From a virus: a stretch of 64,000 nucleotides of DNA. Below are positions 42,360 through 48,167 of the stretch, piece by piece. The notes beneath the pieces were generated by a model. It searched no databases, was not told the origin of the DNA, and saw nothing but the letters and a program-made list of their open reading frames with translations. Numbering within the stretch: position 1 is the first letter of the stretch; each line of letters opens with the position of its first letter. The stretch spans positions 1 through 64,000 of the IMG/VR virus record IMGVR_UViG_3300023181_000004; one strand, 5' to 3'. The position numbers and the translations under genes are program-made.

Positions 42360-43088
42360 ATGGATTATATTCTCGCCTCCGATCTGCACATGGACACCGG
42401 CCACGCCGGTGTCCCGTTGCGGACGATGGACTGGGGCAATGCGATCACGCCGATCCTGATCGCCGGCGACCTCGGCAATGGCCTCGGCAACTTCGGCTTC
42501 ATCGAGAAGCTGCGACGCAAAGGCCACACCGTGTTCCTGACCGACGGCAACCACGAGCACTACGCCAACAAGGCGCAGAAGCGCTCGCTGATGGAAACCG
42601 AGCTGGCCTTCCAGCGGCTCGCCGGTCACCCGTCGGTGGTTCAGCTGCGCAGCGGCCTCTACCTCATCATGTGCAACGGCTGGTACGTCGTCGAGGACGA
42701 AGAGCACTGGCAGAACTACATGAACGACAGCCGCCACGGCGCACTGTCGGCCGAGGTGGTGAACGCCGCCGCTCGGCGCCACGCCGACTTCGTCGCGGCC
42801 TCGCTGATGCGCTTGCCGCACGACAGCAAGGCGATCGTGATGACGCACACGGTGCCGTGTGAGCAGAGCCTCGACCCGCGCTTCGTCGGCTCGGCCGGCA
42901 ATCCGTATTATTGGAACCCGCACATGGAGCGGGTGCTGATCGCGGGGCGTGACTCGATCGCGGCGTGGCATCACGGCCACACCCATTTCCCGATGAACAT
43001 TGTCCACGAGGGCGTGAAGATCATCACGAACCCGCGCGGCTATCCTGGAGAGGTGCAATCATGGCGACCACTGGCCTTAACGATCTGA
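42360..43088 (+). CDS. calcineurin-like metallophosphoesterase
   Basis: SDLH, AGD, GNHE, THT, HGHTH, NPRGY. Confidence 0.92.
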   Translation: MDYILASDLHMDTGHAGVPLRTMDWGNAITPILIAGDLGNGLGNFGFIEKLRRKGHTVFLTDGNHEHYANKAQKRSLMETELAFQRLAGHPSVVQLRSGLYLIMCNGWYVVEDEEHWQNYMNDSRHGALSAEVVNAAARRHADFVAASLMRLPHDSKAIVMTHTVPCEQSLDPRFVGSAGNPYYWNPHMERVLIAGRDSIAAWHHGHTHFPMNIVHEGVKIITNPRGYPGEVQSWRPLALTI

Positions 43089-43984
43089 ACGACATCCCGC
43101 GCGCATGGCGCTCGGCACTTGCGTCAATCCAGACGCTGGCGCCCGAGGCGGTCATCGCCGGCGGGTGTTTGCGGGACCGCGAGCACGGGGTGAAAGTCAA
43201 GGATATCGACATTTTCGTGCCATGCGAGAGCGTGGACAGCCATGAGGGCAAGCTGTTCGAGCAGCGGATGAAGAACGACGGGTGGCAGGACGTGCAGACC
43301 TTGCACGACGAGAGCTATAACGGCTCGCGTATCTCCCGCTCGATCGAGACGATGTTCCCCGGCTGTCCGCCGATCAATATCATCGTCATGCCCTATGCAT
43401 TGATCGAATTCGACTTCGGCATCTGTCAGATCGAGTTCAACGGCAAGCGTATCCTGCGCACCCGCGACTACAACATCGACTTCCGGGCCAAGCAGTTCCG
43501 ACTGGTGCCCAAGGTCGGCGATGCCGAGTTCGTGCGGTCGCTGAACCGCTGGGCGCGGCTCAAGGAGAAGTACGAAGGATGGAAGCTCAACCTCGGAAGC
43601 CGGGCGGAGCAGCCGGGCACGATCACCGGTTACATCGATTACGCCTCGGGCGGTCCGCTCAACATGCCGGGGGTGCGCACCTTGGCACAAGCGATGACGA
43701 TGGCGAAAACAACGCAACTGGCGCCACCACGCACAGCCGACATGATCCACACTCTCAACGATCTGTCCGGTCACGGACCCGGCGAGTATATCGTGGACCG
43801 AGCGATTGCGGAACGACTAGCCAGAGAGACGACGGCACAGATCATCGGCCAACACCGCAACAGCCACGGCGTTGTGGTCAAAGTGGACGACAAAGCGGTG
43901 ATACCGATGCGGAAAATCGTCGAGGACATGCTGGTGGTGCGGGATCGGCTGTCGCGGAAGTACACGTCGCCCGGCCAACCCTAA
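43061..43984 (+). CDS. CCA-adding/poly(A) polymerase-like nucleotidyltransferase
   Basis: VIAGGCLRD...KDIDIF and FDFGICQ; GAGG RBS. Confidence 0.8.
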   Translation: MATTGLNDLNDIPRAWRSALASIQTLAPEAVIAGGCLRDREHGVKVKDIDIFVPCESVDSHEGKLFEQRMKNDGWQDVQTLHDESYNGSRISRSIETMFPGCPPINIIVMPYALIEFDFGICQIEFNGKRILRTRDYNIDFRAKQFRLVPKVGDAEFVRSLNRWARLKEKYEGWKLNLGSRAEQPGTITGYIDYASGGPLNMPGVRTLAQAMTMAKTTQLAPPRTADMIHTLNDLSGHGPGEYIVDRAIAERLARETTAQIIGQHRNSHGVVVKVDDKAVIPMRKIVEDMLVVRDRLSRKYTSPGQP

Positions 43985-46643: not shown

Positions 46644-47027
46644 ATGATGGATGTTCTAGATAAACCGCCGGGCACCGCCGGGCCTCCGACGCTCCCGCCC
46701 TTCCTACGCAAGCGCGGCGGAGGCGGCCGACCAAAGTGGGTGATCTTGCCGGATCTCATGCTTGCTGAGCAGGCCACGACCCTCTTGGATCGGGAACATA
46801 ACTGGATCACTCTGGCCTATCGCTGGATGATCCGGCTCAATACGGAGACGTGGGAGGGCGAGCGTGCCTTCGTCCACACTCGCGTCTACCGGCAGTGGCT
46901 GGAGACCTACGAGGCCAAGGATGGCCTGCCGCCGCACATCTGCTTCGGCGGTGCCATCGAGGCTCGCGATGCCGATTTAACGTTCTATCCACGGTGGGTA
47001 GAATATGCGAAGGAGACGTTCTGCTAA
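46644..47027 (+). CDS. hypothetical protein
   Basis: AAGGAG RBS. Confidence 0.6.
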   Translation: MMDVLDKPPGTAGPPTLPPFLRKRGGGGRPKWVILPDLMLAEQATTLLDREHNWITLAYRWMIRLNTETWEGERAFVHTRVYRQWLETYEAKDGLPPHICFGGAIEARDADLTFYPRWVEYAKETFC

Positions 47028-47033
47028 TCGGCA

Positions 47034-47062
47034 TTGACAGGTTCGTTCGGAGTTCCTAGATC
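47034..47062 (+). promoter_or_regulatory. sigma70-type promoter for tmRNA
   Basis: TTGACA-17 bp-TAGATC directly upstream of the acceptor piece. Confidence 0.7.
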
Positions 47063-47064
47063 AC

Positions 47065-47332
47065 GCATCCGGCCTCGGCCGGGCTGCTGGAGAACACGCG
47101 GGGGGCAGTACCTCGCCGCCTCCACCATAGCCAGTGCCTTGGCACCCCTGCTTTAACGTGACGTCCGAGGGGAGTTGAGGAGCGCACACTGGCTTTGATG
47201 GGGGCGAAATAGGATCGACTCTCCGTGCGGTAGAATGTAAATGCGAATGACAATGGTGAGGCCGTGAGCCTCCGACTGGCAGCGTAACTGCACAGGGGCC
47301 TGACCGAGAGCCTGGCAACATAATCTCGGTCA
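47065..47332 (+). ncRNA. ssrA: two-piece (circularly permuted) tmRNA, alphaproteobacterial type
   Basis: acceptor piece ends CGCCTCC-A-CCA (47117-47127); coding piece starts GGGGGCGAAATAGGATCGAC (47200) giving a 7-bp acceptor stem with G3-U70; tag ANDNGEAVSLRLAA-stop at 47243-47287; terminal hairpin with CCTGGCAACA loop. Confidence 0.92.
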
Positions 47333-47338
47333 CCTTAT

Positions 47339-47412
47339 GGGAGCGTAGCTCAGTTGGTAGAGCATGGCACGTCAAAAGGCTCTGGTCGAAGGTTCGAGTC
47401 CTTCCGCTCCCC
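47339..47412 (+). tRNA. tRNA-like RNA / pseudo-tRNA with unpaired anticodon arm
   Basis: perfect acceptor GGGAGCG/CGCTCCC, D arm GCTC-AGTTGGTA-GAGC, T arm GAAGG-TTCGAGT-CCTTC; anticodon stem cannot form; no in-register CCA. Confidence 0.7.
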
Positions 47413-47418
47413 GCAACC

Positions 47419-47435
47419 AAGTTACCCGGTAGTTT
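47419..47435. promoter_or_regulatory. 17-bp site (10 of 12)
   Basis: AAGTTAC-CCG-GTAGTTT, followed by TATAAT. Confidence 0.7.
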
Positions 47436-47513
47436 TATAATGGAGGTTTGCATGAAGTGATCAGGTCTGTAGAAGGACCACTCTACCAACCCAAAACGAA
47501 CTGGAACTATAAC

Positions 47514-48167
47514 ATGGCAACTTCCTCCGCCCTCGACGCCGTCATGGATCAGGCCACCGCAGCTGCTGATGCTGCCGCCCCCTCGACCGCGATGATCCCG
47601 CAGGACCAGAGCACCGCTCTTGCTGCAACCCCCGCCGCTTCGCTCAGCCTCGACGATCTCGCCGACAGCTCGGGCATGGTGGTCGACGCCTATCTCGGGG
47701 TGAAGGACGCGGGCCTTCGGATCGACACCAACGCCTACTTCCAGAAGGCCAAGGGCAAGATCAACATCGCCGAGGTGGCGGTCATCATGTCGGTGCGGGC
47801 GAACCGCGGCGGCTCGACGACCTTCATCAAGTCCTACGACGGTCGCATGACCTCGCAGGGCGAGAACTTCCAGCAGGCGACGCAGCGTCTGCAGGCGACC
47901 CACGACAAGGTCGACGGACCGTACCGCACGGTCGAGGTTCCCTTCCTGCTGGGCGAAGACGTCCCCGGCGCAAAGAAGGGCCAACGTCTCGGCATCACCC
48001 CGGCGATCACCGGCGTGAAGTTCTGGAACGCGTTCTACGACGAGGTCCGCAAGGCCAACCTCGCCGGCTCGGTCGTCGATGTCGAGATCGAGTGCGTTCC
48101 CCAGCGCAACAAGAACGGCAACGAGTGGGGCGTGGTCGGCTTCAAGCTGATCGGCGCCGCCAAGTAA
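47514..48167 (+). CDS. putative ssDNA-binding/replication protein
   Basis: highly biased codons, own terminator, lies between helicase and exonuclease/polymerase; function by context. Confidence 0.45.
   Translation: MATSSALDAVMDQATAAADAAAPSTAMIPQDQSTALAATPAASLSLDDLADSSGMVVDAYLGVKDAGLRIDTNAYFQKAKGKINIAEVAVIMSVRANRGGSTTFIKSYDGRMTSQGENFQQATQRLQATHDKVDGPYRTVEVPFLLGEDVPGAKKGQRLGITPAITGVKFWNAFYDEVRKANLAGSVVDVEIECVPQRNKNGNEWGVVGFKLIGAAK

What the first reader, a model, noticed from the sequence alone, without database searches (positions are those of the whole stretch)
47339..47419. Anticodon-less tRNA mimic directly behind the tmRNA
Seen: starts 6 nt after the tmRNA terminal hairpin. Acceptor (7/7), D (4/4) and T (5/5) stems are perfect with canonical loops, but the 24-nt middle (ATGGCACGTCAAAAGGCTCTGGTC) forms at most 2-3 of 5 anticodon-stem pairs in either register (loop centre TCA or CAA), and CCA is not in register. 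Decay confined to one arm argues against neutral pseudogenisation. Inference: an RNase P/Z processing tag that matures the tmRNA 3' end, a tRNA decoy against anticodon nucleases or tRNA-modifying toxins, or a substrate for the phage CCA-like enzyme. With the tmRNA it may form an undescribed two-RNA unit.
Basis: partly seen in the sequence, partly recalled or inferred. Interest (0 to 1): 0.72.

Follow-up and report, generated by a model that had tools for sequence, protein, structure and literature searches.

The report
Broken tRNA gene behind phage tmRNA
A soil phage carries, right after its own ribosome-rescue RNA gene, a tRNA gene whose anticodon arm no longer folds; its relatives hold different tRNAs or nothing at that spot, so it is most likely a decaying passenger gene, not a new kind of RNA.

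Summary
At 47339-47412 there is a true tRNA homologue (Rfam tRNA 52 bits, E 2.8e-8; ARAGORN). Its acceptor, D and T arms and its tertiary-core bases are perfect. Its anticodon stem has only 3 of 5 pairs plus one extra base. It starts 7 nt after the terminal hairpin of a phage alpha-type two-piece tmRNA. A second assembly gives the same letters.

The functional reading is weak, because the element is a singleton (0 hits). In nine related phages this position is a fast-changing tRNA cassette slot:
- three hold intact tRNAs (Ile-GAU, and Met-CAU twice);
- two hold odd tRNAs (a long-arm GCA tRNA and an 8/4 Tyr-like tRNA);
- three hold nothing, although each has the tmRNA.

The closest four relatives (82-92% identical neighbouring protein) show four different slot states.

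My verdict is a recently inactivated, co-transcribed tRNA cassette (confidence 0.55). RNase P probably still cuts it out, which incidentally trims the tmRNA trailer. A selected role as processing punctuation or as a decoy cannot be excluded.

This scan reported a similar pairing on other DNA (e1-3504630: phage mini-tmRNA plus broken tRNA-Met). I did not check that note.

The parts
47034..47062 (+). Promoter-like TTGACA-17 nt-TAGATC in front of the tmRNA gene
   Evidence: Read. The same TTGAC...CTAGAT arrangement is seen upstream of the tmRNA in L002, L003 and L004. The simple consensus scan listed a different site, 46977-47004, instead.
47030..47332 (+). Phage-encoded alpha-type two-piece (permuted) tmRNA gene, ending in the hairpin 47302-47331
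   Evidence: Rfam RF01849, 53 bits, cut-off 50, E 6.5e-12. Homologous tmRNAs occur in L002, L003, L004, L169, L171 and L172.
47332..47338 (+). 7-nt spacer (ACCTTAT) between the tmRNA hairpin and the tRNA-like gene. The predicted RNase P cut is at 47338/47339.
   Evidence: The same 6-11 nt spacing is seen in L168, L169, L171 and L172. The cleavage is inferred, not shown.
47339..47412 (+). 74-nt tRNA-like gene with intact acceptor, D and T arms and tertiary-core bases
   Evidence: Rfam tRNA 52 bits. ARAGORN cloverleaf.
47365..47382 (+). Aberrant anticodon arm: one extra base, 3 of 5 stem pairs, and the loop GTCAAAA (anticodon CAA if the U is taken as U33)
   Evidence: Non-standard pairs are marked in the Rfam alignment. 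ARAGORN drawing. The MFE fold gives no anticodon hairpin; z-score -1.58, and 13 of 200 shuffles fold as well.
47413..47419 (+). GCAACCA: the CCA is out of register. Together with the preceding CC it repeats the 3' end (CCGCA+ACCA) of the tRNA-Met cassette of relative L171, so it may be a relic of an earlier cassette.
   Evidence: Comparison of the sequences printed. The relic reading is inference.
47416..47479 (+). Conserved block that closes the slot: ACCA, TTACCCGGTAG, Shine-Dalgarno GGAGG (47442-46), mini-ORF ATG AAG TGA (47452-60), and hairpin 47464-79
   Evidence: Alignment A1 and sequences. The block is present in all tmRNA-bearing relatives, with or without a tRNA.
47514..48167 (+). Conserved 217-aa gene of unknown function, used as the anchor to find relatives
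   Evidence: No Pfam or PHROG family.

Best explanation
It is a tRNA gene cassette of the ordinary class-I type. Its body most resembles Trp, Asn or Ile tRNAs. It sits in a hypervariable tRNA slot between the phage tmRNA and a conserved leader block, and it has recently lost its anticodon arm.

Likely course of events (inferred):
1. It is transcribed from the tmRNA promoter as part of one precursor.
2. The acceptor stem, T arm, D arm and elbow are intact, so host RNase P and 3' processing enzymes probably still excise it. That incidentally trims the trailer of the tmRNA coding piece.
3. The product cannot present an anticodon, and its identity marks do not agree with one another (C73, anticodon CAA, short variable loop). 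It therefore does not decode, and bacterial RNA quality control probably removes it.

Shown here: homology to tRNA, the anatomy, singleton status and the turnover of the slot. Inferred: transcription, processing and instability.
For: 1. It is a true tRNA homologue whose only defect is in the anticodon arm.

2. The slot varies among relatives.
- L001: intact tRNA-Ile(GAT), 64.3 bits, plus the 3' end of a second tRNA.
- L171 and L172: intact tRNA-Met(CAT), 66.5 and 61 bits.
- L169: long-arm tRNA with a GCA anticodon.
- L168: Tyr-like tRNA.
- L002, L003, L004: tmRNA but no tRNA.
- Records G003 (100% complete) and G004 (99%) have no tRNA anywhere.

3. The four closest genomes, whose neighbouring protein is 82-92% identical, show four different slot states.

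4. The cassettes are not orthologous. The window element is 71% identical to the L001 tRNA, while the adjacent gene is 90% identical.

5. No second copy was found.
- IMG/VR: 0 hits.
- JGI metagenome contigs: 0 hits.
- Phage records: no match above about 81% over most of the length.
- Plasmid records: no match above 84.5%, and that one covers only 77% of the query.

6. More distant relatives lack tRNA and tmRNA within the 2.5-kb flanks held (L128, L129, L131, L132). Caulobacter phage Seuss has no RNA gene annotated at the syntenic gap. The whole RNA locus is therefore an accessory insertion.

7. Two adjacent mismatches plus one inserted base account for the defect, so few events are needed.

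8. Pseudo-tRNAs are already annotated in phage tRNA clusters, for example 'tRNA-Pseudo-CCA' in Rhizobium phage B1VFA.
Against: - All detectable damage lies in one arm, while 16 other stem pairs and every tertiary-core base are untouched. The positional chance is about 0.013-0.066 for this arm.
- No intact orthologue was found, so descent from a working tRNA is inferred and not shown.
- With a single copy, selection cannot be measured in either direction.
- Two other cassettes in the same slot are also structurally unusual (L168, L169). This could mean that the slot favours non-standard tRNAs for a reason.
- Expression and stability are untested.
Confidence: 0.55

Rival explanations
1. Selected processing punctuation. 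The element no longer decodes, but it is kept because RNase P and RNase Z cleavage at a tRNA shape releases the tmRNA coding piece and the downstream mRNA from a common precursor.
For: - A tRNA starts 6-11 nt after the tmRNA hairpin in 5 of 5 filled slots.
- There is no + strand terminator between the tmRNA and the next gene.
- Exactly the parts that RNase P recognises are intact.
- Damage restricted to the part that is dispensable for processing fits this idea.
Against: - 3 of 8 tmRNA-bearing relatives have no tRNA in the slot, yet keep the same tmRNA hairpin and leader block.
- Any tRNA would do this job, so it does not explain a broken one.
- The element is a singleton.
Confidence: 0.15
2. 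Non-decoding tRNA mimic that acts in trans. It could be a decoy or sponge for host factors that recognise the acceptor end or the elbow and not the anticodon, such as tRNA-tail or acceptor-stem nucleases, modification enzymes, or the phage nucleotidyltransferase.
For: - The acceptor, T and D core is intact while the anticodon arm is unusable.
- tRNA-targeting immunity and phage tRNA counter-measures are documented. I saw only the search listings and the starts of the abstracts of PMC10264068, PMC11555353 and PMC12851939.
- The variety of single tRNAs in the slot (Met, Ile, Cys-like, Tyr-like) looks like an arms-race pattern.
Against: - It is not conserved, with no second copy.
- Anticodon nucleases need a formed anticodon stem-loop, so it would be a poor decoy for them (established knowledge).
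- The nucleotidyltransferase gene does not co-occur with slot tRNAs.
- No defence-related gene is adjacent; the neighbours are a helicase, a 5'-3' exonuclease and PolA.
Confidence: 0.1
3. A working decoder with an unorthodox anticodon arm: either anticodon CAA, or an 8-nt loop that reads four bases or shifts the frame.
For: - U33, A37 and A38 are in place around CAA in the ARAGORN register.
- Natural 8-nt anticodon loops exist. An example is yeast mitochondrial tRNA-Thr(UAG) (passage seen in PMC7609411).
Against: - Two central stem mismatches (C-C and A-G) leave no stable helix, and the MFE fold forms no anticodon hairpin.
- The identity marks disagree. A Leu anticodon sits on a short-variable-loop body with C73, so by recalled identity rules neither LeuRS nor TrpRS should accept it.
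- The genome reads normally under table 11.
Confidence: 0.07
4. Sequence or assembly error within an intact tRNA gene.
For: It is a metagenome assembly, and only one holder run is listed.
Against: An independent Logan contig at depth 31 is identical over 801 nt. Several separate differences would be needed to restore a stem.
Confidence: 0.02

Closest known systems
Pseudo-tRNA genes in phage tRNA clusters (tRNAscan-SE 'pseudo' or tRNA-OTHER calls, e.g. B1VFA_065 'tRNA-Pseudo-CCA' of Rhizobium phage B1VFA)
   Same: A phage-borne tRNA homologue that scores as a tRNA but has a structural defect and stands next to other stable-RNA genes.
   Different: Here it is the only tRNA in the genome. It directly follows a tmRNA, and the damage is limited to the anticodon arm. 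tRNAscan-SE itself could not be run.
tRNA-like stable RNAs of phage T4 (RNA C and D) and T5 (RNA1 and RNA2). Recalled, and named as closest known in earlier scan notes e1-5340029 and e1-5367891.
   Same: Non-decoding, tRNA-shaped phage RNAs encoded beside tRNA genes, with unknown function.
   Different: Those are conserved among relatives and larger than a tRNA. This one is a singleton of exact tRNA size, and it is still alignable end to end with the tRNA model.
Phage-encoded two-piece tmRNA genes (e.g. OM43 phage Melnitz; about 2.3% of phage genomes carry a tmRNA, 53 of them two-piece; passages seen in PMC9004378)
   Same: An alpha-type permuted ssrA behind its own promoter in a lytic-type phage, often found in the company of phage tRNAs.
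   Different: The literature I saw does not describe a fixed tRNA slot right after the tmRNA hairpin. In 120 other viral contigs with the tmRNA motif, 10 have a same-strand tRNA within 450 nt downstream; 109 of the 120 have that much sequence.
Phage tRNAs that replace or escape host tRNAs hit by anticodon nucleases (PMC10264068, PMC11555353; search listing and start of abstract only)
   Same: Single phage tRNAs of varying identity, with changes concentrated in the anticodon region.
   Different: Those tRNAs remain functional decoders with a normal stem. Here the stem itself is broken.
tRNA punctuation of polycistronic transcripts (mitochondrial model and bacterial rRNA/tRNA operons; recalled)
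   Same: A tRNA shape between two other RNAs gives RNase P and RNase Z a cutting site.
   Different: Three relatives lack any tRNA here, so it is not needed. Processing was not tested.

Membership tests
tRNA (Rfam RF00005) | Scores above the family's gathering cut-off over the full model | tested here: met
   52 bits against a cut-off of 29, model positions 1-71 of 71.
tRNA (Rfam RF00005) | 7-bp acceptor stem, D arm with G18 G19, and T arm with the TTC loop | tested here: met
   7 of 7, 4 of 4 and 5 of 5 pairs; loops AGTTGGTA and TTCGAGT.
Functional decoding tRNA | 5-bp anticodon stem closing a 7-nt loop | tested here: not met
   3 of 5 pairs in both registers and one extra base. It is the only such case among 55 distinct tRNA calls. 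The MFE fold lacks an anticodon hairpin.
Functional decoding tRNA | Coherent identity set (discriminator, anticodon, variable-arm class) | tested here: inconclusive
   C73, anticodon CAA and a 5-nt variable loop. The body resembles phage Trp, Asn, Ile, Arg and Lys tRNAs at 76-81% identity. The judgement of incoherence rests on recalled identity rules.
tRNA pseudogene (tRNAscan-SE criteria) | Low covariance score with a weak primary or secondary structure component | not testable with these tools
   tRNAscan-SE is not installed. As a proxy, the Rfam score of 52 bits is lower than the 61-66.5 bits of the intact slot tRNAs.
Conserved phage tRNA-like stable RNA (T4 RNA C/D, T5 RNA1/2 type) | The same non-decoding RNA is conserved in related phages | tested here: not met
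   0 further copies. Relatives carry other tRNAs or none.
Obligate tmRNA + tRNA-like two-RNA unit | Every tmRNA of the clade is followed by the partner RNA | tested here: not met
   Filled in 5 of 8 readable slots, with five different sequences (four tRNA kinds, Met twice). Empty in L002, L003 and L004.
YrlA / Y-RNA-like tRNA mimic (RF02553) | Match to the family model | tested here: not met
   13.7 bits against a cut-off of 69.

The most novel reading that the evidence does not exclude
The slot behind the phage tmRNA may be an anti-defence hotspot for tRNA cassettes. On this reading the anticodon-less tRNA is kept on purpose. Its intact acceptor and elbow module would be cut out by RNase P, which also finishes the tmRNA. 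It could then soak up host factors that attack or mark tRNAs through the tail or the elbow, without disturbing decoding. The unusual neighbours in the same slot (an 8/4 Tyr-like tRNA and a long-arm tRNA with GCA and U73) would be other solutions to the same problem.
Probability: 0.13. Interest if true: 0.65.

Novelty: new member of a known kind. Interest (0 to 1): 0.27.

Why it matters
Taken alone, the element is a broken phage tRNA gene, which is an ordinary thing. It warns against reading function into a singleton.

The context has some value. A clade of Seuss-like soil phages carries its own tmRNA, followed by a slot whose tRNA content changes faster than the neighbouring protein gene does. 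The slot holds intact, non-canonical and dead tRNAs. This is a compact natural system for studying how phages gain, test and lose single tRNAs, and whether such tRNAs help phage tmRNA maturation or evade tRNA-targeting immunity.

Tried and rejected
Searches for a second copy or a parent tRNA:
- A body pattern with a free middle found 0 hits in viral contigs and 0 in metagenome contigs.
- A middle-only pattern found 0 hits in viral contigs.
- The exact 21-nt 3' end occurs only in 34 Elusimicrobia loci, all with the loop CTCCAAA (tRNA-Trp). This is probably convergence and says nothing about the host.
- Blastn against phages matched 678 records, all 84% identical or less and of mixed isotypes.
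- Blastn against plasmids matched 8 records, all 84.5% or less.
- The 19-nt middle does not recur in the window.

Steps that could not be run:
- More relatives. 
- A leader-block pattern recovered only three known relatives.
- Expression. No RNA holder is listed, and the only holder is a DNA run that may be the source sample.
- tRNAscan-SE is not installed.
- Supplementary files of the papers were not opened.

Ideas rejected:
- The attP or integration-scar idea. The genome has direct terminal repeats, I noticed no integrase near the locus but ran no dedicated integrase search, and both acceptor strands match each other.
- A link between the nucleotidyltransferase gene and the tRNA-like RNA.
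- Other Rfam families over 47280-47520; none came near its cut-off.

Full report
WHAT IS THERE

The window is the first 64 kb of an 83,296-bp virus record with direct terminal repeats, rated 100% complete. Its G+C is about 61%. Its PolA is 41% identical to that of Caulobacter phage Seuss, the nearest cultured phage.

Rfam finds two RNA genes in the window. One is an alpha-type permuted tmRNA at 47030-47332 (53 bits, cut-off 50). The other is a tRNA at 47339-47412 (52 bits, cut-off 29, E 2.8e-8). ARAGORN calls the second 'tRNA-Leu(caa)', 74 nt. It is the only tRNA in the genome.

The locus lies in the replication module. The order is helicase, an unknown 130-aa gene, tmRNA, tRNA-like gene, an unknown 217-aa gene, 5'-3' exonuclease, PolA. 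All are on the + strand.

CHECK OF THE OBSERVATION

- The acceptor stem has 7 of 7 pairs, the D stem 4 of 4 and the T stem 5 of 5.
- The D loop is AGTTGGTA and the T loop is TTCGAGT.
- The positions that build the tertiary core (U8, A14, G15/C48, G18 G19, G46, G53-C61) are standard.

The middle is the problem. Rfam aligns TGGCA/GGCTC, with two non-standard pairs, around an 8-nt loop CGTCAAAA. ARAGORN instead puts an extra T after position 26 and pairs GGCAC/GGCTC, with C-C and A-G mismatches in the centre, around GTCAAAA.

Free-energy folding keeps the other three arms but makes no anticodon hairpin. The fold is not better than shuffles: z-score -1.58, and 13 of 200 shuffles fold as well.

The discriminator is C, and the nearest CCA lies 4 nt further on. 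The tmRNA terminal hairpin ends at 47331, so the spacer is 7 nt.

Of 55 distinct tRNA calls, 45 have 5 of 5 anticodon-stem pairs, 9 have 4 of 5, and only this one has 3 of 5.

A Logan contig of 21 kb at depth 31 is identical over 46900-47700. It probably comes from the same sample, so it excludes an assembler artefact but not a peculiarity of that sample.

RELATIVES

I used the conserved 217-aa gene just downstream as an anchor. This gave nine informative related loci and four more distant ones.

State of the slot between the tmRNA hairpin and a conserved leader block:

| Locus | Slot content |
|---|---|
| window | this broken tRNA |
| L001 (neighbouring protein 90-92% identical) | intact tRNA-Ile(GAT), 64.3 bits, preceded by the 3' end of another tRNA; the contig starts there, so its tmRNA is unknown |
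| L002 | tmRNA, no tRNA |
| L003 | tmRNA, no tRNA |
| L004 | tmRNA, no tRNA |
| L168 | Tyr(GTA)-like tRNA with an 8-bp acceptor, 4-bp T stem and weak D arm; seen by ARAGORN but only sub-threshold by Rfam (tRNA-Sec model, 28.6 bits) |
| L169 | 7/5 tRNA with a long variable arm, anticodon GCA and U73 (49.4 bits) |
| L171 | tRNA-Met(CAT), 66.5 bits |
| L172 | tRNA-Met(CAT), 61 bits |

Of eight slots known to follow a tmRNA, five are filled and three are empty. In all five filled slots the tRNA begins 6-11 nt after the tmRNA hairpin.

Whole-record searches show no tRNA anywhere in G003 (100% complete), G004 (99%) or G005 (97%). They show the tmRNA in G002, G003 and G004.

The four more distant relatives (L128, L129, L131, L132) have neither RNA within the 2.5-kb flanks held. 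Phage Seuss has only an 80-nt gap with no annotated RNA at the syntenic place.

On a tree of the neighbouring protein, the innermost group of four (window, L001, L002, L168) shows four different slot states. The window element is 71% identical to the L001 tRNA-Ile, which is the level of unrelated class-I tRNAs. The adjacent gene is 90% identical at the DNA level. The slot contents are therefore exchanged cassettes, not diverged orthologues.

The 3' halves of the tmRNA are also mosaic relative to that tree, which points to frequent recombination here.

IS THE SAME RNA ANYWHERE ELSE?

No.
- Patterns that keep the body and free the middle found nothing. A pattern that keeps the middle and frees the body also found nothing.
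- The best matches in 50,697 phage records are 76-81% identical over most of the length and are annotated Trp, Asn, Arg, Ile or Lys. Plasmid matches reach at most 84.5% over a partial length.
- The exact 3' 21-mer occurs only in Elusimicrobia tRNA-Trp genes.

The parent isotype stays open. Aligned to a mycobacteriophage tRNA-Trp, the loop differs from CTCCAAA mainly by one anticodon base, but the stem differs at most positions.

HOW IT MOST LIKELY WORKS

A conserved TTGACA-17-TAGATC promoter precedes the tmRNA in the window and in its relatives. No terminator-like site lies on the + strand between 46500 and 48300.

I therefore infer one precursor that carries the tmRNA, the tRNA-like RNA and the leader of the next gene. 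The tRNA-like part keeps everything RNase P and the 3' processing enzymes recognise. It should still be excised, and that would set the end of the tmRNA trailer. This is inference from the known substrate rules of those enzymes.

The product has no stable anticodon helix. Its identity marks disagree (C73, CAA, short variable loop; the identity rules are recalled). I expect it neither to be charged coherently nor to decode, and to be turned over.

The defect needs few events: one inserted base and two adjacent mismatches. A purely positional estimate puts such clustering in the anticodon arm at 0.013-0.066, and in any single arm at 0.05-0.24. That is suggestive but weak, the more so because the pattern was picked after it was seen.

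Together with the rapid gain and loss of cassettes at this slot, the best reading is a young pseudo-tRNA (0.55).

RIVALS

- Selected punctuation (0.15) fits the intact processing determinants and the constant 6-11 nt spacing. However, three relatives do without any tRNA.
- A trans-acting decoy (0.10) fits the arms-race look of the slot and current knowledge of tRNA-targeting immunity (PMC10264068, PMC11555353, PMC12851939; listings and starts of abstracts only). It lacks conservation, a formed anticodon stem-loop and any linked gene. The nucleotidyltransferase (phrog_1614; no Pfam hit) occurs in tRNA-less G002 and G003, and is missing from G004.
- An unorthodox decoder (0.07) is allowed by U33 and A37 around CAA, and by the precedent of an 8-nt loop in yeast mitochondria (passage in PMC7609411). 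Two central mismatches argue against it.
- Assembly error (0.02) is made unlikely.

COMPARISON WITH WHAT IS KNOWN

Phage tmRNAs, including two-piece ones, are documented: 402 of 18,146 phage genomes carry a tmRNA, and 53 are two-piece (passages in PMC9004378). Pseudo-tRNAs are routinely annotated in phage tRNA clusters.

tRNAs following a phage-borne alpha tmRNA also occur elsewhere. In 120 other viral contigs carrying the tmRNA motif, 10 have one within 450 nt downstream; 109 of the 120 have that much downstream sequence.

I did not test that note.

The element is thus a new member of a known kind. The variable slot with its non-canonical occupants is the more interesting by-product. It can be compared with the 8/4 tRNAs of Mukai et al. 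(abstract seen, PMC5389517).

LIMITS

- The element is a single copy.
- There are no RNA data.
- The host is unknown.
- tRNAscan-SE was not available.
- Supplements of the cited papers were not seen.

Noticed in passing
window 47416-47479; also L001-L004, L168, L169, L171, L172: A conserved block closes the tRNA slot in all tmRNA-bearing relatives. It has a strong Shine-Dalgarno sequence and then a mini-ORF. The mini-ORF is ATG AAG TGA in the window, L001 and L172; ATG ATC TGA in L169 and L171; and six codons in L002, L003, L004 and L168. A short hairpin follows, about 35-60 nt before the 217-aa gene. It looks like a start-stop or leader-type translational control element.
   Followed up: partly
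L168:59-146: A Tyr(GTA)-anticodon tRNA-like gene with an 8-bp acceptor stem, 4-bp T stem, small extra arm, weak D arm and encoded ACCA. ARAGORN calls it. Rfam gives only a sub-threshold tRNA-Sec hit (28.6 bits, cut-off 47). It resembles the 8/4 'allo-tRNA' type.
   Followed up: partly
L169:911-996: A 7/5 tRNA with a Tyr/Sec-like D arm and a long variable arm, but with anticodon GCA and discriminator U73. These are both main cysteine identity marks on a class-II body.
   Followed up: no
window 47411-47419 against L171:1493-1503: Just after the tRNA-like gene the window reads CCGCA+ACCA. This is the same as the last bases of the tRNA-Met cassette in L171. It may be a relic of a replaced cassette and a hint that cassettes recombine at the tRNA 3' end.
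   Followed up: no
window 47230-47332 against L002-L004, L168, L169, L171: The tmRNA 3' halves come in two sequence types. Their distribution (window, L003, L169 and L171 against L002, L004 and L168) does not follow the tree of the neighbouring protein, so the RNA locus is mosaic.
   Followed up: no
L001:1-23: The contig begins with the 3' end of a further tRNA (T loop, acceptor strand, ACCA) 10 nt before tRNA-Ile. This relative therefore carries at least two tRNAs in the slot.
   Followed up: no
G002:C1:52262-53227 (-): The homologue of the window's nucleotidyltransferase gene (42965-43984) in relative G002 contains one in-frame TGA.
   Followed up: no
window 47128-47199 against L003, L169, L002: The intervening segment between the two tmRNA pieces varies greatly in length among relatives. 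It is about 70 nt in the window and well over 100 nt in L003 and L169.
   Followed up: no
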